From: an uncultured bacterium
GTDB lineage: Bacteria; Muiribacteriota; Ozemobacteria; Ozemobacterales; Ozemobacteraceae
Assembly: GCA_964596185.1 (NCBI GenBank)
Contig: CAZQUE010000001.1
Coordinates: forward strand, 6,545-70,544
Reading direction: 5' to 3'
Length of the DNA: 64,000 nucleotides
The notes under the pieces were generated by a model. It was not told the DNA's origin and searched no databases. It worked only from the letters and a program-made list of their open reading frames with translations. Numbering within the stretch: the first letter of the stretch is position 1; each line of letters begins with the position of its first letter. Below are positions 15,658 through 20,420 of this stretch, piece by piece. The position numbers were made by a program, and so were the translations under genes.

Positions 15658-17349
15658 TTATTTTTCCCGAGGGAATGGCCAGGCCATAATGCCGCCTTCA
15701 AGAATCCAGACATTGTCATAACCATGGCCGTTAAGTAGTCTGGCAGCCTCATAGCCACGCAATGAAATTTTGCAGTAACAGAAGATTTTGGAATTCTTAT
15801 CTTCAGGCAGTTCGTTCAATCGATTGCGAATCGAACCCAGCGGCATGAGTTTCTCGCCAATGCCGAGTCGCATGGCTTCAAACTCGTCTGAGCCCCGGAC
15901 ATCGAGAATAACCGGTTTTTCTCCTTTGTCCAGCAATGCTTTGAACTGGTGAGCAGAAACGCCTTTCATCAAACCATCGAGCTTGTTTTGCATTATATGT
16001 GCCGTGGCGATTGAATGGTCTATCGCCAGGCTGAACGGAGGAGCATAGGGAAGATCAGCATTACAGTAATCGTCTATGGTCAGCCCGCCAAGAATAGCAG
16101 TTGCCCATTCCGCAATCTGTTTCGAAACATCGCCTGGTCCTACACACTGGGCTCCAAGTATTTTCCTCGTTTTTCGATCGGCAATCAGTTTGGTAATCAG
16201 CAATTGCCCTTTCATAAAGCCTGGTTTGTCAGGGCTTGCATTGATGACCGTTTCAATGTCGATAAAACCGGCTTTAGCAGCATTTCTTTCGTTGATCCCG
16301 GTAGTTCCGGCAGAGAAATCGAAAACTTTGCAAATGCCGGTTTGAATAGTGCCGGGATATTCTTTGCGATTGTTCATGATAAGGTTCTCGCCGGCAACTC
16401 TTCCTTCAAGATTTGCCAAATCACCATAGGGCGCGAGAACTTTTTTGCCGGTAAGCCGTTGGGTTATTTCTATACAATCACCAACTGCATAAATGTTGGG
16501 ATCTGATGTCTGAAGGTAGTTGTTAACAGCTATGCCGCCAGTTTGACCGATTTCAAGGCCAGCGTTCACAGCCAGTTCGGTGTTGGGAATTACGCCGATG
16601 GCGATTATTGCAAGCTGACAATCGAGCTCTGTGCCATTTTGAAGTTTTACCCCGGTTAGTTTGCCGTCTTTGCCAAGAAACTCAGCCAGACCATTGTTAC
16701 AGATTACGTTGGCGTTTTTGCTGCGAATGTGGTTTTCAACCAGTTTTGCCATTTCTTCATCAAGAAATGACAGCAACTGGGGCAACATTTCAATGATGGT
16801 GATTTCAATTCCTGCCAGATGCAGAGCTTCACAGGTTTCGATGCCAATTAAACCACCACCAATAACCACCGCTTTGCGAATTTTCTTTTCATCGGCAATT
16901 TTTCTGAGGTAATCGGCATCACGCATGCTTTGCAGTGTTGTAATTCCCTCAAGGTCTATGCCGGGTACGTTGGGCATGCGTGGTTTTGCGCCAGTGGCAA
17001 TTACAAGTTTGTCGTATGTCAGATCTTCAGTTTGTTGATTATCGATATTTCTGATCTTGACCTTTTTATTTTTTCTGTCGATTGAAACTGCTTCAGTTCC
17101 GGTTTTGGCATTTATGCCTTTGGCATTGAGAAAAAATTTGGGATCACGAACTACTCCGGTAGGTGTGCAGATTAATTGGTTGCGATCGTCGAAAAAACCT
17201 CCTACATAATATGGATACCCACATGAGGCCATCGAAAGATCGGGGGATTTCTGAATAATTGTTATTTCAGCTTTTTCGTCAAATCTTCGGGCGCGGGCGG
17301 CGGTTTTGGGGCCTGCTGCCGATCCGCCAATTACTAGAATCTTCTGCAT
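15658..17349 (-). CDS. CoA-disulfide reductase / NADH-dependent persulfide reductase-like flavoprotein with C-terminal rhodanese domain
   Basis: N-terminal FAD motif MQKILVIGGSAAGPKTAARARR, redox-active Cys region (SMASCGYPYY), second Rossmann (VVIGGGLIGIE). The C-terminal rhodanese has an active-site CYCKISLRG. Confidence 0.75.
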   Translation of the reverse strand: MQKILVIGGSAAGPKTAARARRFDEKAEITIIQKSPDLSMASCGYPYYVGGFFDDRNQLICTPTGVVRDPKFFLNAKGINAKTGTEAVSIDRKNKKVKIRNIDNQQTEDLTYDKLVIATGAKPRMPNVPGIDLEGITTLQSMRDADYLRKIADEKKIRKAVVIGGGLIGIETCEALHLAGIEITIIEMLPQLLSFLDEEMAKLVENHIRSKNANVICNNGLAEFLGKDGKLTGVKLQNGTELDCQLAIIAIGVIPNTELAVNAGLEIGQTGGIAVNNYLQTSDPNIYAVGDCIEITQRLTGKKVLAPYGDLANLEGRVAGENLIMNNRKEYPGTIQTGICKVFDFSAGTTGINERNAAKAGFIDIETVINASPDKPGFMKGQLLITKLIADRKTRKILGAQCVGPGDVSKQIAEWATAILGGLTIDDYCNADLPYAPPFSLAIDHSIATAHIMQNKLDGLMKGVSAHQFKALLDKGEKPVILDVRGSDEFEAMRLGIGEKLMPLGSIRNRLNELPEDKNSKIFCYCKISLRGYEAARLLNGHGYDNVWILEGGIMAWPFPREK

Positions 17350-17493
17350 GTCATTTTCCTTAATATGTAATATTTTTTAACACGATAGCAGTATAAAAGA
17401 TGCTCCTTCGCTTTTAAAGAAAAAAATCTCTAAAGCTTCATTGGTGTAATGGGAATAAAATAATGTTCCAACAAAAGGGAAAATTAAAAAACT

Positions 17494-17535
17494 AGTTGCG
17501 CAACCTTTTGCTGGTTTCGCAACCAGTTGCGCAAA
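17494..17535. promoter_or_regulatory. Three copies of a palindromic GTT(G/T)CGCAAC motif in the divergent CoADR / thioredoxin intergenic region (candidate operator)
   Basis: AGTTGCGCAAC at 17494-17504, GTTTCGCAAC at 17514-17523 and AGTTGCGCAA at 17525-17534. The TTGCGCAA core is self-complementary. Confidence 0.35.
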
Positions 17536-17965: not shown

Positions 17966-17975
17966 GGAGCGAACA

Positions 17976-20420
17976 ATGAAGATTTTAATAGTAGGGGGAG
18001 TGGCTGGTGGAGCGAGTGCCGCCGCAAGGGCCAGAAGAATAAATGAAGAGGCCGAAATAGTTCTTTTTGAGCGCGGCGAACATATTTCGTTTGCCAACTG
18101 CGGTTTGCCTTATCACGTCAGCGGGGTTATTGACACTAGAGATAAGCTGTTAGTGACCACTCCAGAAATTATGAAAGAAAAGTTTGCGATAGACGTTCGA
18201 ACTCATAATGAGGTACTCGAAATCAATCGCGAGAAAAAGCAGATTCTGGTGCGTAATCTGATAAAAAATGAAGATTACACCGAGACATACGACCATCTGA
18301 TTCTCAGTCCGGGGGCAGCTCCTTTCAAGCCGCCTATTCAAGGGGTTGACAGTAAAAACATATTTTCCCTTCGCAATCTCGAAGACATGGATAGGATCAA
18401 AAATGCTGCTGAGGGCGCCAAAGATGCTGTCGTAATTGGCGGCGGTTACATTGGTCTGGAAATGACCGAATCCCTTCGGCACATGGGAATCGATGTCGTG
18501 TTGGTCGAGCTTGCCCCGCAGGTAATGGGGCCTTCTGACCCAGAAATGGCTTCAATGCTTCATGCTGAAATCGAAATGAATGGGGTGAAGTTGAAGCTGG
18601 GTCAGTCAGTTACTTCTTTCGAGCAGATCGGTGATCGCTTAAAAGTTACATTGAGTTCGGGCGAGAAGCACGAAGTCGATCTGGCAATCATGGCTATCGG
18701 TGTGCGCCCTGAAAACAAGCTCGCCAAGGATGCCGGTCTCGACATTGGTGTAACGGGTGGAATCAAGGTCAACAGCTTCATGCAAACCAGTGATCCGGAT
18801 ATTTATGCGGTTGGTGATGCGGTTGAAGTAATTGACTTGATGTCAGGGCAGCCTGCGTTGATACCTCTTGCCGGTCCTGCCAATCGACAGGGACGCATTG
18901 CGGCCGACAATATATTTGGGCTCAAAAGAGAATATCGAAACACTCAAGGATCAGCAGTTTGCAAGGTTTTTGACCTTACATTTGCCATGACCGGTTTGAG
19001 TGAAAAGCAGGCAGTGAAAAATTCGATTAATTTTGACAAAGTATTTGTACACCCGGCAAATCATGCCAGTTATTATCCTGGCGCAACGTCGATTTCTTTG
19101 AAGGTTCTTTTCGATCCAAAAAACGGTAAAGTGCTCGGGGCTCAGGCGGTTGGTCTTGAAGGAGTCGATAAGCGCATCGATGTTTTAGCTGTAGCAATCA
19201 GAGCAGGTTTGACCGTATATGACCTTGAAGAACTTGAATTGTGTTATGCCCCGCCATACGGCTCTGCTAAAGATCCGGTTAACTACGCCGGCATGGTAGC
19301 TGCAAATATCCTTCGCGGTGCTGCAGAACATTTTCATGTCGCTGACATCGAGAAATTCGATTCAAATAAAAAGTTGATTGACGTAAGAACTCGTGAAGAA
19401 GTTTTGGCAGGAGCTATTCCTGGTGCAATGCATATTCCTCTGCATGAAATTCGTGAAAGAATTGGGGAATTGTCTAAGGAAAAAGAATACATGATCTACT
19501 GTCAGGCCGGTTTGCGTGGTTATCTTGCTTACCGGATTTTCAAGCAGAAGGGTTTGAAAGCATCTAACCTCGACGGTGGTTACAAGACCTATTGCATGGT
19601 CAACAAAAATGCACTTTATGATAAGAGTGAAATGACCGACGATGCCGGCGGTGAAATGGAAATGGCGGCAAATCAGGAAGACGGCGTTCTCAAAATCGTA
19701 AAACAGATAGACGTTTCCGGCCTGCAATGTCCGGGGCCGATAAGTAAGCTTCGCTCGGCTATTGACGAAATTGAAAAAGGTCAGGCAATAGAAGTGATAG
19801 CTACTGACCCTGGATTTGCTGCTGATGTTCCTGCCTGGTGCAGATCAACCGGTAACCAGTGCGTGAACATTGAGAAAATTCCTGGTGGCAAATTCAAAGC
19901 TACAGTAAAAAAGCTTGGAAAATTAGAATGCTCAGCAATCACTACCTGCCAGAAAAAAATGACCAATGTCATTTTCAGCAATGACCTCGATAAGGCAATG
20001 GCTGCTCTGATTATTGCTAATGGTGCGGCTGCGGCCGGTTATGAAACGACGCTGTTCTTTACATTCTGGGGTTTGAGCCTGTTACGCAAAGAACCCGAGA
20101 AGCCTGTCGAAAAAAATCTGGTTGAAAAGATGTTTGGCATGATGCTTCCTAAGGGTGTAAATGGTCTGAAGCTTTCAAAAATGCATATGGGCGGCATGGG
20201 TACGGCCATGATGCATAAAGTTATGGCTGATAAACATGTAACTTCGCTGAAAGATCTGCTCAAGAGTGCTATAGACAACAAGGTTAAGCTGGTGGCATGT
20301 TCGATGAGCATGGATGTGATGGGCATTAAAGAAACGGAATTGATCGATGGCGTTGAGATCGGTGGTGTGGCAATGTATATCGACGAATTGAGCAAGAGCA
20401 ATTCTGGTTTGTTCATCTAA
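17976..20420 (+). CDS. Four-domain fusion: CoA-disulfide/persulfide reductase flavoprotein, rhodanese, TusA-like and DsrE/DsrF-like
   Basis: N-terminus MKILIVGGVAGGASAAARARR plus SFANCGLPYH redox Cys. Rhodanese CQAGLRGY. TusA CPGP motif (GLQCPGPISKL). C-terminal roughly 110 aa DsrE-like with a conserved Cys region (VACSMSMDVMG). Confidence 0.75.
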   Translation: MKILIVGGVAGGASAAARARRINEEAEIVLFERGEHISFANCGLPYHVSGVIDTRDKLLVTTPEIMKEKFAIDVRTHNEVLEINREKKQILVRNLIKNEDYTETYDHLILSPGAAPFKPPIQGVDSKNIFSLRNLEDMDRIKNAAEGAKDAVVIGGGYIGLEMTESLRHMGIDVVLVELAPQVMGPSDPEMASMLHAEIEMNGVKLKLGQSVTSFEQIGDRLKVTLSSGEKHEVDLAIMAIGVRPENKLAKDAGLDIGVTGGIKVNSFMQTSDPDIYAVGDAVEVIDLMSGQPALIPLAGPANRQGRIAADNIFGLKREYRNTQGSAVCKVFDLTFAMTGLSEKQAVKNSINFDKVFVHPANHASYYPGATSISLKVLFDPKNGKVLGAQAVGLEGVDKRIDVLAVAIRAGLTVYDLEELELCYAPPYGSAKDPVNYAGMVAANILRGAAEHFHVADIEKFDSNKKLIDVRTREEVLAGAIPGAMHIPLHEIRERIGELSKEKEYMIYCQAGLRGYLAYRIFKQKGLKASNLDGGYKTYCMVNKNALYDKSEMTDDAGGEMEMAANQEDGVLKIVKQIDVSGLQCPGPISKLRSAIDEIEKGQAIEVIATDPGFAADVPAWCRSTGNQCVNIEKIPGGKFKATVKKLGKLECSAITTCQKKMTNVIFSNDLDKAMAALIIANGAAAAGYETTLFFTFWGLSLLRKEPEKPVEKNLVEKMFGMMLPKGVNGLKLSKMHMGGMGTAMMHKVMADKHVTSLKDLLKSAIDNKVKLVACSMSMDVMGIKETELIDGVEIGGVAMYIDELSKSNSGLFI

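What the first reader, a model, noticed from the sequence alone, without database searches (positions are those of the whole stretch)
15658..20420. Thioredoxin plus two CoADR-rhodanese flavoproteins (one fused to TusA and DsrE) embedded in the flagellin gene array
A divergent pair sits between flagellin 1 and flagellin 2. On the minus strand is a CoA-disulfide/persulfide-reductase-rhodanese protein. On the plus strand are thioredoxin and an 814-aa CoADR-rhodanese-TusA-DsrE fusion. Rhodanese, TusA and DsrE are persulfide-carrier domains, so the fusion looks like a self-contained NAD(P)H-driven persulfide/polysulfide relay. Its placement in the middle of a late flagellar operon set, bracketed by strong terminators, is unusual. 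It may reflect co-regulation of motility with sulfur or redox status, or a horizontal insertion.
Basis: partly seen in the sequence, partly recalled or inferred. Interest (0 to 1): 0.6.

Follow-up and report, generated by a model that had tools for sequence, protein, structure and literature searches.

The report
Sulfur-reductase operon beside flagellin genes
An inherited, separately switched gene pair (thioredoxin plus a four-part enzyme that probably turns reactive "sulfane" sulfur into H2S) sits between two flagellin genes in a Rifleibacteriota genome; the position is conserved and native, with no sign that it is foreign DNA or part of the flagellar programme.

Summary
The three ORFs and all predicted domains are present and pass curated thresholds. 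The 814-aa protein is an Npsr/CoAPR-type flavoprotein-rhodanese (57% identical to Shewanella Npsr) extended by flexibly tethered TusA and DsrE2-like domains. One cysteine per module is invariant in homologues down to 44% identity.

- Composition is native.
- The order fla1 → trx → fusion is found in every Rifleibacteriota relative recovered with enough sequence (fusion 71-96% identical; one has lost trx).
- Only the minus-strand 563-aa Npsr-like gene is a recent addition. It is present in the window and its 96% relative, and its orthologues lie elsewhere in other genomes.
- trx-fusion is an autonomous unit. It has a phylogenetically footprinted sigma-54 promoter, three upstream GGTTGCGCAA repeats (a likely enhancer-binding-protein site) and its own terminator. 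Flagellar genes nearby use sigma-28-type promoters.
- In other phyla the fusion sits next to ArsR-, CsoR/CstR-, MarR- or sigma-54-activator-type regulators, the families that include known persulfide sensors.

Best reading: an inducible NAD(P)H-driven persulfide/polysulfide reductase with a built-in sulfur relay. The architecture has been noted in the literature but not characterised biochemically. Interest is modest.

The parts
17976..20420 (+). 814-aa four-module flavoprotein. It comprises an Npsr/CoAPR-type pyridine-nucleotide-disulfide oxidoreductase (nt 17976-19259, redox Cys42 codon 18099-18101), rhodanese (19362-19592, Cys509 codon 19500-19502), a linker (19608-19682), TusA (19701-19913, C585-P-G-P, codon 19728-19730), a second linker (19923-19949) and a DsrE2-like DrsE_2 domain (19953-20414, Cys775 codon 20298-20300).
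   Evidence: Pfam. NCBIfam. PDB: 3NTA E 1e-192 and 3PNX E 2e-30. Invariant cysteines. AlphaFold2 model with low-confidence linkers at 545-569 and 650-658. Coordinates.
17654..17965 (+). Thioredoxin (103 aa, WCGPC). It is the first gene of the two-gene operon, and its stop lies 10 nt before the fusion's ATG.
   Evidence: Pfam 98.3 bits and NCBIfam TIGR01068 114.2 bits against a 96.8 cut-off. It is conserved directly upstream of the fusion in relatives and in the unrelated L040.
17601..17615 (+). Candidate sigma-54 promoter TGGCAC-aaaaga-TGC (-24 GG / -12 GC), about 40 nt upstream of the trx ATG.
   Evidence: TGGCA and TGC are invariant in alignments of 5 and 8 loci while the surrounding sequence averages 55-60% column identity. 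The same motif lies at the equivalent position in 15 related loci. It is the only such motif in the window that sits in an intergenic region facing a gene.
17495..17535 (+). Three GTTGCGCAA-type repeats (17495-17504 perfect palindrome GTTGCGCAAC; 17514-17523; 17526-17535), about 70-110 nt upstream of the -24 element. They are the likely binding site of a bacterial enhancer-binding protein.
   Evidence: The GTTGCG cores are conserved across relatives. They cluster only here in the window. The position is typical of enhancer-binding-protein sites (established knowledge). The binding protein has not been identified.
20441..20490 (+). Intrinsic terminator of the trx-fusion operon.
   Evidence: -26.8 kcal/mol, z -3.6, followed by UUUUU. 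Relatives carry non-homologous hairpins with U-runs at the same place.
15658..17349 (-). 563-aa Npsr-like flavoprotein-rhodanese (redox Cys43 in SMASCGYPY; rhodanese Cys526 in CKISLR). It was recently added at this site.
   Evidence: Pfam. Best PDB match is A. fulgidus Npsr 6PFZ (E 2e-142, 46% identity). It is present here only in the window and L001. Orthologues of 78-84% identity lie at unrelated loci.
17390..17418 (-). Sigma-70-like promoter candidate (TTTAAA-17-TATACT) for the 563-aa gene.
   Evidence: Consensus scan only, which is weak evidence. No sigma-54 motif lies on this strand.
15612..15635 (.). Terminator hairpin shared by the convergent fla1 and 563-aa genes. It has a U-run only in the fla1 direction.
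   Evidence: It is homologous to the fla1 terminator of L002 and L003, which lack the 563-aa gene.
12983..15583 (+). Flagellin 1 (866 aa), the upstream neighbour. It is not part of the sulfur unit.
   Evidence: Pfam. 72-97% identical in relatives, always followed by trx-fusion.
20809..23052 (+). Flagellin 2 (747 aa), the downstream neighbour. It is not part of the sulfur unit.
   Evidence: Pfam. In L036 this position holds a secretin cluster instead.

Best explanation
trx plus the 814-aa gene form an autonomous, inducible two-gene operon of a Candidatus Rifleibacteriota bacterium. Its product is an NAD(P)H-dependent reductase for sulfane sulfur (persulfide, polysulfide or S0) with its own sulfur-delivery arm. 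Inferred mechanism: NAD(P)H reduces FAD. FAD reduces the Cys42 site, which in Npsr/CoAPR enzymes carries a tightly bound CoA. The rhodanese Cys509 presents a persulfide that is cleaved to H2S. The flexibly tethered DsrE2-like (Cys775) and TusA (Cys585) modules pick up sulfane sulfur from low-molecular-weight or protein persulfides, polysulfide or thiosulfate-type donors, and hand it to the rhodanese. The co-encoded thioredoxin probably reduces persulfidated or disulfide-trapped proteins, or the carrier domains themselves. Transcription is from a sigma-54 promoter activated by an unidentified enhancer-binding protein bound to the GGTTGCGCAA repeats, most plausibly in response to sulfide, reactive sulfur species or redox stress. 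The position between flagellin genes is inherited across the clade and reflects ancestry rather than flagellar function. The neighbouring 563-aa Npsr-like gene was added recently next to a functionally related operon. Shown here: domains, invariant cysteines, conservation of the promoter and repeats, synteny, native composition. Inferred: substrate, direction of sulfur flow, the role of thioredoxin, the inducing signal.
For: Domains are above curated cut-offs. Residues 2-541 match the kinetically and structurally characterised Npsr of Shewanella loihica (3NTA, E 1e-192, 57% identity), B. anthracis CoADR-RHD (3ICR) and E. faecalis CoA-persulfide reductase (8A56). Npsr enzymes reduce persulfide and polysulfide, not CoA-disulfide (PMC7969121 abstract). 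Residues 659-814 match the DsrE-type protein 3PNX and the NCBIfam DsrE2 model. C42, C509, C585 and C775 are invariant in 15 homologues down to 44% identity and in 36 database homologues. The linkers 545-569 and 650-658 have pLDDT below 50 between confident modules. The sigma-54 motif and GTTGCG repeats are the only conserved non-coding elements across relatives. In L040 a trx-fusion pair with a sigma-54 motif is divergent from an LMWPc-PAS-Sigma54_activat-HTH_8 activator. Elsewhere the fusion is adjacent to ArsR-type regulators (7 loci), a CsoR/CstR-type regulator (1 locus) and, in B. fragilis, is repressed by the MarR-type BmoR (PMC6158253). There is precedent for sigma-54-dependent sulfide-responsive control in FisR (PMC7315123). 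Thioredoxin-like proteins reduce protein persulfides in S. aureus (PMC6196236 abstract). Terminators lie on both sides. Composition is native. Synteny is conserved in all relatives recovered.
Against: There is no biochemical evidence for any member of the four-domain architecture. NCBIfam equivalog cut-offs for CoA-disulfide reductase, TusA and DsrE2 are not reached, so the modules are family members rather than orthologues of characterised proteins. No enhancer-binding protein is encoded in the window, and the repeats differ from those in L040 and L043, so the activator and its signal are unknown. The structural model is of moderate quality (pTM 0.58) and monomeric, although the family is dimeric. 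The persistence of the fla1-fusion adjacency despite turnover on both sides (L036, L055, the window) is not explained by this reading.
Confidence: 0.63

Rival explanations
1. The enzyme has the same chemistry but a different physiological role. It is a cytoplasmic S0/polysulfide reductase used as a fermentative electron sink (disposal of NAD(P)H) rather than a stress or detoxification device.
For: Npsr was proposed to support dissimilatory sulfur reduction (PMC7969121 abstract). A metagenomic study proposed 'intracellular elemental sulfur reduction' for a DsrE-Npsr-TusA fusion (PMC7887784). The record names of some related contigs suggest anaerobic or sulfidic sources, for example 'SulCav'. 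This genome now carries two Npsr-type genes side by side.
Against: The regulators found next to the fusion in other phyla (ArsR, CsoR/CstR-type, MarR BmoR, redox-type sigma-54 activator) are typical of stress-responsive loci, not catabolic ones. No sulfur-respiration or transport genes are linked. Thioredoxin linkage fits thiol repair better.
Confidence: 0.2
2. There is a functional link to the flagellum. The operon is kept beside fla1 because it serves motility, for example by coupling flagellin expression or modification to sulfur or redox state, or because the sigma-54 activator is a flagellar regulator.
For: The fla1-(trx)-fusion adjacency is retained in every relative recovered down to 71% fusion identity, although the downstream flagellins (L036), trx (L055) and the upstream spacer (window) have all been remodelled. 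Sigma-54 drives flagellar genes in several bacterial groups (established knowledge). The window also carries a flagellin glycosylation island.
Against: The unit has an independent promoter and terminators on both sides. No sigma-54 motif or GTTGCGCAA cluster lies upstream of any flagellar gene in the window. flgK has a sigma-28-type promoter and FlgM is encoded here. Outside this clade the fusion is never next to flagellar genes. No known flagellar process needs a persulfide reductase.
Confidence: 0.07
3. The region is a horizontally acquired island inserted into the flagellin array.
For: The 563-aa gene is absent from this site in all relatives except the closest one. The same spot holds a DAHP synthase in L055, so the spacer after fla1 does accept new genes. 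A 27-nt, 70%-complementary inverted repeat lies at the boundaries of the 563-aa insertion.
Against: Codon usage and tetranucleotide composition are typical of the window. trx-fusion is at this site in all relatives, and its closest homologues are all Rifleibacteriota. The 563-aa gene has 78-84% orthologues elsewhere in related genomes, including the same 5.2-Mb genome that has trx-fusion beside fla1. No integrase, transposase or tRNA lies at the borders. The inverted repeat is AT-rich, partly coding and probably due to chance.
Confidence: 0.05
4. The module mobilises sulfur for biosynthesis. The TusA/DsrE/rhodanese modules would feed sulfur to cofactor or tRNA thiolation rather than dispose of it.
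For: TusA and DsrE-type (TusBCD) proteins carry sulfur for tRNA thiolation and molybdenum cofactor synthesis in E. coli (established knowledge). There is a weak NCBIfam TusA hit.
Against: The modules are fused to an NAD(P)H-dependent reductase whose characterised relatives release H2S. The NCBIfam TusA equivalog cut-off is not met (44.5 vs 78). No thiolation enzymes are linked. The gene is under stress-type regulators in other phyla.
Confidence: 0.05

Closest known systems
NADH-dependent persulfide reductase Npsr (Shewanella loihica PV-4, PDB 3NTA/3NTD; Archaeoglobus fulgidus, PDB 6PFZ)
   Same: It has the same flavoprotein plus C-terminal rhodanese core, with the SFANCGLPYH redox-Cys motif and the rhodanese CQxGLRG loop. 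The fusion is 57% identical over 540 residues to the Shewanella enzyme, and the 563-aa protein is 46% identical to the A. fulgidus enzyme.
   Different: The 814-aa protein carries two extra sulfur-carrier modules (TusA and DsrE2-like) on flexible linkers and is co-transcribed with thioredoxin. Its activity has not been tested.
CoA-persulfide reductase CoAPR of Enterococcus faecalis (PDB 8A56) and B. anthracis CoADR-RHD (PDB 3ICR)
   Same: It has the same two-domain core (E 3e-164 and 1e-167). CoAPR is a reactive-sulfur detoxification enzyme (PMC9405070; its CstR regulation is stated from my own knowledge).
   Different: Those enzymes have no TusA or DsrE modules. Control here is by sigma-54, not by a CstR-type repressor.
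Bacteroides fragilis BF638R_0572
   Same: It has the identical four-domain order, CoADR-rhodanese-TusA-DrsE_2 (PMC6158253). It is an inducible gene linked to thiol/disulfide balance and to a thioredoxin (TrxP).
   Different: It is repressed by the MarR-type BmoR, has no adjacent trx gene and no flagellar neighbours. It is also biochemically uncharacterised.
'DsrE-Npsr-TusA fusion' reported from lake metagenomes (PMC7887784)
   Same: It combines the same modules and was proposed to reduce intracellular sulfur.
   Different: It is described with two rhodanese regions and comes from other phyla. No sequence comparison was made here.
Staphylococcus aureus CstA, a multidomain sulfurtransferase
   Same: It has the rhodanese-TusA-DsrE-like module order and is a persulfide relay of a sulfide-stress operon (from my own knowledge of Higgins et al. 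2015, which is cited in PMC5480029).
   Different: CstA has no flavoprotein reductase and works with CstB and SQR in an oxidative pathway. The resemblance was not tested by alignment here.
FisR-type sigma-54-dependent control of sulfide-detoxification operons (Cupriavidus, Acinetobacter baumannii)
   Same: An enhancer-binding protein plus a sigma-54 promoter drives reactive-sulfur genes (PMC7315123). L040 shows a divergent activator-trx-fusion arrangement.
   Different: The target genes differ (sqr and pdo there, a reductase here). The activator for this window is unidentified and not adjacent.

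Membership tests
Npsr / CoAPR / CoADR-RHD flavoproteins | FAD/NAD(P)H pyridine-nucleotide-disulfide oxidoreductase fold with a dimerisation domain | tested here: met
   Pyr_redox_2 scores 218 bits and Pyr_redox_dim 63 and 54 bits for the two proteins. Full-length matches to 3NTA, 3ICR, 8A56 and 6PFZ.
Npsr / CoAPR / CoADR-RHD flavoproteins | A single redox-active Cys in the SFxxCG(L/Y)PY motif near residue 42-43 | tested here: met
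   Cys42 (SFANCGLPYH) is invariant in 15 and 36 homologues. Cys43 (SMASCGYPYY) in the 563-aa protein aligns with the A. fulgidus Npsr Cys.
Npsr / CoAPR / CoADR-RHD flavoproteins | C-terminal rhodanese domain with a catalytic Cys | tested here: met
   Rhodanese scores 54.7 and 47.3 bits. Cys509 (CQAGLRG) is invariant. Cys526 (CKISLRG) aligns with the A. fulgidus Npsr Cys.
Npsr / CoAPR / CoADR-RHD flavoproteins | Tightly bound CoA and NAD(P)H-dependent persulfide/polysulfide reductase activity | not testable with these tools
   This needs purified protein.
CoA-disulfide reductase in the strict sense (NCBIfam TIGR03385 equivalog) | Score above the curated equivalog cut-off | tested here: not met
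   503 bits (fusion) and 374 bits (563-aa) against a cut-off of 578.8. 'CoA-disulfide reductase' is therefore not the right name. This agrees with Npsr enzymes lacking CoA-disulfide activity.
TusA sulfur-carrier family | TusA fold with the conserved Cys-Pro-x-Pro motif | tested here: met
   PF01206 scores 75.7 bits against 28.6. C585-P-G-P is invariant.
TusA sulfur-carrier family | Orthology to E. coli TusA (NCBIfam equivalog cut-off) | tested here: not met
   44.5 bits against a cut-off of 78. It is a TusA-like domain, not the TusA orthologue.
DsrE / DsrE2 (DrsE_2) sulfur-carrier family | DrsE_2 domain with a conserved Cys | tested here: met
   PF13686 scores 190.3 bits against 25. Match to 3PNX at E 4e-31. 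Cys775 is invariant.
DsrE / DsrE2 (DrsE_2) sulfur-carrier family | NCBIfam DsrE2 equivalog cut-off | tested here: not met
   92-95 bits against a cut-off of 210.
Thioredoxin | Thioredoxin fold, WCGPC motif and the equivalog cut-off | tested here: met
   TIGR01068 scores 114.2 against 96.8, PF00085 scores 98.3 bits, and the sequence contains WCGPC.
Sigma-54-dependent operon | -24 GG / -12 GC elements with canonical spacing upstream of the first gene | tested here: met
   TGGCAC-N6-TGC at 17601-17615. TGGCA and TGC are invariant across relatives, and the motif is found in 15 related loci.
Sigma-54-dependent operon | Upstream activator sites and a cognate enhancer-binding protein | tested here: inconclusive
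   Conserved GTTGCGCAA repeats lie about 70-110 nt upstream of the -24 element. No activator is encoded in the window. An adjacent activator is found only in L040, which has different repeats.
Sigma-54-dependent operon | RpoN-dependent transcription start | not testable with these tools
   This needs 5'-end mapping and an rpoN mutant.
Horizontally acquired genomic island | Atypical composition relative to the host | tested here: not met
   Codon-usage z is -0.17 to +0.35 and tetranucleotide z is -1.5 to +0.6.
Horizontally acquired genomic island | Absent from the same site in related genomes | tested here: not met
   trx-fusion is present at the site in all relatives with enough sequence. Only the 563-aa gene is site-specific to the window and L001, and it has orthologues elsewhere in relatives.
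Horizontally acquired genomic island | Mobility genes or insertion scars at the borders | tested here: inconclusive
   There is no integrase, transposase or tRNA. The only candidate scar is a 27-nt, 70% inverted repeat at the borders of the 563-aa segment, which is probably due to chance.
S. aureus CstA-type multidomain sulfurtransferase | Rhodanese-TusA-DsrE-like module order with sequence homology to CstA | not tested
   The module order matches from memory of the literature. No CstA sequence was compared here.

The most novel reading that the evidence does not exclude
The conserved placement reflects function. In this clade a sulfide/polysulfide-responsive sigma-54 activator and the trx-fusion operon would be wired into the late flagellar locus, so that motility (or flagellin modification) and disposal of reactive sulfur are coordinated. 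Such a link between sulfane-sulfur metabolism and flagella has not been described.
Probability: 0.07. Interest if true: 0.7.

Novelty: new member of a known kind. Interest (0 to 1): 0.33.

Why it matters
The four-module Npsr-rhodanese-TusA-DsrE2 protein is widespread. The capped search returned 8000 hits to the whole query, and nearly all of the best 120 listed carry the full architecture, from Rifleibacteriota, Kiritimatiellota, Bacillota and other phyla. It has been remarked on twice in the literature but no member has been characterised. It packs a complete electron-to-sulfur relay (NAD(P)H, FAD and four cysteines) into one chain, which makes it an attractive model for how sulfane sulfur is channelled to a reductase. 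This locus adds three things. First, it gives a clean, footprinted sigma-54 promoter and activator site. Second, it shows that the same enzyme has been placed under at least four different regulator types in different phyla. Third, it gives an example of gene accretion, with a second Npsr gene arriving next to the first. It does not reveal a new link between flagella and sulfur metabolism.

Tried and rejected
1. I looked for a sigma-54 activator in the window by running Pfam on essentially all ORFs of 120 aa or more. None was found.
2. I tested whether the GAF-type activator next to ahpC in the related contig L043 could be the regulator. Its upstream repeats (CACCGAAAT type) differ from GTTGCGCAA, so I rejected it. 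The repeats of the L040 activator (GTTAC/GTAAC) differ as well.
3. I looked for a sigma-54 promoter for the 563-aa gene. None is present, only a weak sigma-70-like match. Its upstream region shares only a short AT-rich stretch with orthologues elsewhere.
4. I searched for insertion scars around the 563-aa gene. Only an AT-rich, 70% inverted repeat turned up, which is not convincing.
5. I rejected the 121-aa TTG start for trx. It overlaps the conserved promoter, and relatives aa.
'Ozemobacter' is absent from the taxonomy copy, and the literature on it gave no physiology.
7. I aligned the ArsR-type neighbours to look for a BigR/SqrR-like cysteine pair. Cysteines are present in six of seven, but the pattern was not decisive.
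8. The structure prediction gave only moderate confidence (pTM 0.58). I used it only for the linker inference and did not pursue a fold search.

Full report
**What is there.**
- The 814-aa ORF (17976-20420, +) matches Pyr_redox_2, Pyr_redox_dim, Rhodanese, TusA and DrsE_2/DsrE, all well above Pfam gathering scores.
- The 563-aa ORF (15658-17349, -) has the same flavoprotein core plus rhodanese.
- The small ORF is a canonical WCGPC thioredoxin that passes the NCBIfam equivalog cut-off.
- The correct trx start is the ATG at 17654 (103 aa, preceded by AGGAG), not the TTG at 17600.
- The neighbours are flagellins.

The whole window is a late-flagellar and flagellin-glycosylation region. In order it encodes FlgM, FlgN, FlgK, a 1015-aa FlgL, FliW, CsrA, six flagellins, FlaG, FliD, Maf-like proteins, FliS and nucleotide-sugar enzymes. 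Hairpin terminators flank the sulfur genes on both sides.

**Whose genome, and how common is the protein.** The closest homologues of the fusion (71-100% identity) are from Candidatus Rifleibacteriota (Riflebacteria, Ca. Ozemobacter, Ca. Rifleibacterium). Next come Kiritimatiellota/Pontiella at about 60%, then Bacillus, Paenibacillus, Clostridium and others at about 45-52%. Nearly all of the best 120 hits are full length with the same four-part architecture, so this is a widespread protein family and not a one-off fusion.

The literature has noticed it twice. B. fragilis BF638R_0572 has the same domain order, is repressed by the MarR-type BmoR, and is linked to a thioredoxin (PMC6158253). A lake-metagenome study called a DsrE-Npsr-TusA fusion a 'novel gene' for intracellular sulfur reduction (PMC7887784). 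I found no biochemical characterisation.

**What the proteins are.** Residues 2-541 of the fusion align end to end with three solved enzymes: Shewanella loihica Npsr (3NTA, E 1e-192, 57% identity), B. anthracis CoADR-RHD (3ICR) and E. faecalis CoA-persulfide reductase (8A56). The 563-aa protein is closest to A. fulgidus Npsr (6PFZ, 46% identity). Characterised Npsr enzymes reduce persulfides and polysulfide with NADH and do not reduce CoA-disulfide (PMC7969121 abstract). In keeping with that, both proteins fall below the NCBIfam CoA-disulfide-reductase equivalog cut-off. 'Persulfide reductase' is therefore a better label than 'CoADR'.

The C-terminal 270 residues match TusA-type proteins and the DsrE-type structure 3PNX / NCBIfam DsrE2, again below the equivalog cut-offs. 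One cysteine per module is invariant in 15 homologues down to 44% identity and in 36 database homologues: C42 (redox Cys), C509 (rhodanese), C585 (C-P-G-P of TusA) and C775 (DrsE_2). An AlphaFold2 model (mean pLDDT 74.8, pTM 0.58) shows confident modules separated by two very low-confidence linkers at 545-569 and 650-658. This fits tethered, mobile carrier domains. Substrate and direction remain untested.

**Is it a foreign insertion?** No. GC, GC3, synonymous-codon likelihood (z -0.17 to +0.35) and tetranucleotide distance (z -1.5 to +0.6) of the three genes are typical of the window. A different stretch, 43-52 kb, is atypical.

The order flgK-flgL-fliW-csrA-fla1-trx-fusion recurs in every related locus that has enough sequence:
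- L001 (96%), L002 (88%), L003 (87%), L021 (85%), L037 (82%), L034 (Ca. Rifleibacterium amylolyticum, 76%) with its Logan duplicate L035, and L036 (71%, a 5.2-Mb genome).
- L046, L047, L048, L051, L052, L053 and L054, from an independent FliW-seeded metagenome scan.
- L006 shows the downstream half only, and L055 keeps the position but lacks trx.

No relative with an uninterrupted fla1-fla2 junction was found. More distant Riflebacteria homologues (L013, L023; 48-50%) and all other phyla have the fusion away from flagellar genes.

**What is recent.** The minus-strand 563-aa gene is at this site only in the window and L001. In L002, L003, L021, L034, L036 and L037 the fla1 terminator is followed within about 20-60 bp by the trx upstream repeats. 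Orthologues of 78-84% identity exist in other Rifleibacteriota, but at unrelated loci. One lies 1.7 Mb away from trx-fusion in the same 5.2-Mb genome. So a roughly 1.85-kb segment (the gene plus about 140 bp of upstream sequence) was placed between the fla1 terminator and the trx enhancer region in this lineage. This is most simply a relocation or within-phylum acquisition.

The same spacer is remodelled in L055. There, trx and its promoter are replaced by a class-II DAHP synthase, leaving a single GTTGCGCAAC palindrome and a sigma-70-like promoter in front of the fusion. In L036 the downstream flagellins are replaced by a secretin cluster. The fusion's position next to fla1 is therefore stable while its surroundings change. 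I cannot tell whether that reflects selection or chance.

**How it is switched on.** Alignment of the trx upstream region from five and then eight loci shows that almost everything has diverged (55-60% mean column identity). The exceptions are the ribosome-binding site, the ATG, a TGGCA(C/T)-N6-TGC element about 40 nt upstream of the ATG, and GTTGCG(CAA) repeats about 70-110 nt further upstream.
- The first element has the spacing and bases of a sigma-54 -24/-12 promoter. In the window it is the only such motif that sits in front of a gene. It occurs at the equivalent position in 15 related loci.
- The repeats are GTTGCGCAAC, GTTTCGCAAC and GTTGCGCAAA at 17495-17535. They are at the distance expected for an enhancer-binding protein.
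- No such protein is encoded in the window.
- In an unrelated genome (L040, 62% identity) a trx-fusion pair with its own sigma-54 motif is divergent from an LMWPc-PAS-Sigma54_activat-HTH_8 activator, with different upstream repeats.
- Elsewhere the fusion lies directly beside ArsR-family regulators (L004, L005, L013, L015, L023, L038, L039) or a CsoR/CstR-type regulator (L010). In B. fragilis it is controlled by a MarR-type repressor.

ArsR (BigR/SqrR), CsoR (CstR) and sigma-54 (FisR) are the families that include the known persulfide sensors (PMC7315123). This is circumstantial but consistent support for a role in reactive-sulfur or thiol stress.

**Relation to the flagellar genes.** I found no regulatory connection.
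- fla1 ends in a strong terminator, and the fusion ends in another.
- flgK has a clear sigma-28-type promoter (6844-6870), and FlgM is encoded upstream.
- Neither the sigma-54 motif nor a cluster of the repeats occurs upstream of any flagellar gene in the window.
- Four flagellin leaders carry GGA-loop hairpins that look like CsrA sites. This fits the adjacent FliW-CsrA pair and is unrelated to the sulfur operon.

**Most likely mechanism** (confidence about 0.63). The operon is an inducible NAD(P)H-to-sulfane-sulfur reductase.
- *Shown:* module identities, invariant cysteines, tethered architecture, operon structure with Trx, a conserved sigma-54 promoter and repeats, native and conserved location.
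- *Inferred from family knowledge:* electrons flow NAD(P)H → FAD → the Cys42(-CoA) site. Persulfide sulfur arrives by the route DsrE2-like → TusA → rhodanese Cys509 and leaves as H2S. Trx reduces persulfidated or disulfide-trapped partners. Induction is by sulfide, reactive sulfur species or redox stress through an unidentified activator.

**Rivals.**
- A fermentative S0/polysulfide electron sink: same chemistry, different physiology (about 0.2).
- A real functional tie to flagella (about 0.07).
- Horizontal acquisition (about 0.05, and only conceivable for the 563-aa gene).
- Biosynthetic sulfur mobilisation (about 0.05).

**Verdict.** The feature that made it look special, sulfur genes in the middle of the flagellin array, is an inherited clade-wide arrangement of an independently regulated operon with normal composition. 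The protein belongs to a known enzyme family in an architecture already noted, though uncharacterised, in the literature. The new details are the sigma-54 control region, the diversity of regulators across phyla and the recent arrival of a second Npsr gene. They are useful but not surprising. Interest is modest (0.33), and the novelty rating is new member of a known kind.

Noticed in passing
window 20766-20781, 24264-24279, 26878-26893, 31973-31988: The leaders of flagellins 2, 3, 4 and 6 carry short GC-stem hairpins with GGA in the loop (for example AGCGCAAGGATGCGCT), shortly upstream of the ribosome-binding site. They look like CsrA binding sites, which fits the FliW-CsrA pair encoded at 12052-12821 (a Bacillus hag-type partner-switch control).
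   Followed up: partly
window about 43200-52000: This stretch is compositionally atypical (GC 0.38-0.41, tetranucleotide distance z 2.0-2.8). It contains acetyltransferase and methyltransferase genes, unannotated ORFs and DUF4910 within the flagellin-glycosylation region. It is a better candidate for horizontally acquired DNA than the finding itself.
   Followed up: partly
L055 13554-15411: In one related metagenome contig trx and its sigma-54 promoter are replaced by a class-II DAHP synthase gene. A single GTTGCGCAAC palindrome remains (13632-13641), and a sigma-70-like TTGCAT-18-TATAAT precedes the fusion. So the spacer after fla1 is a hotspot of gene turnover.
   Followed up: partly
L043 4733-6991: On the contig carrying the 82% orthologue of the 563-aa gene, ahpC has a sigma-54 motif (TGGCACagctatTGC, 5427-5441, minus strand) and CACCGAAAT-type repeats. 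It lies next to a GAF-Sigma54_activat protein. This suggests sigma-54 control of redox-defence genes is common in this group (compare PexR of Myxococcus, PMC12754779).
   Followed up: partly
window 8982-12029 and 12983-34280: The filament proteins are unusually large: FlgL is 1015 aa, there are six flagellin paralogues of 747-866 aa, and FliD is 992 aa. Fla1 is only 35-41% identical to the other five.
   Followed up: no
window 23179-24075: A 298-aa SAM-methyltransferase gene also sits inside the flagellin array, between flagellins 2 and 3. In L002 and L021 the corresponding gap is only about 0.5-0.7 kb, so this too may be a lineage-specific insertion, or a flagellin-modifying enzyme.
   Followed up: no
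L002, L006; protein P0010: Some public records holding near-identical Rifleibacteriota flagellar and fusion genes are labelled 'Candidatus Methylomirabilis sp.', 'Erysipelotrichia bacterium' and 'Clostridiales bacterium'. These contigs are probably mis-binned.
   Followed up: no
window 15642-15668 and 17477-17503: A 27-nt inverted repeat (70% complementary) lies at the inferred borders of the recently added 563-aa gene segment. It is AT-rich and partly coding, so it is probably coincidental, but it could be a recombination scar.
   Followed up: partly
window 6844-6870 and 5796-5822: Sigma-28-type promoter matches (TAAA-N15/16-CCGATA) lie upstream of flgK and around the annotated flgM start. 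No equally clear match was found in front of most of the flagellin genes.
   Followed up: partly
L041 10011-12509: In the 5.2-Mb relative, the orthologue of the 563-aa Npsr-like gene is followed by a Lactamase_B-fold protein, a SLAC1/TehA-type channel and DUF302. This may be a small sulfur-stress cluster, which would give a clue to the gene's original context.
   Followed up: no
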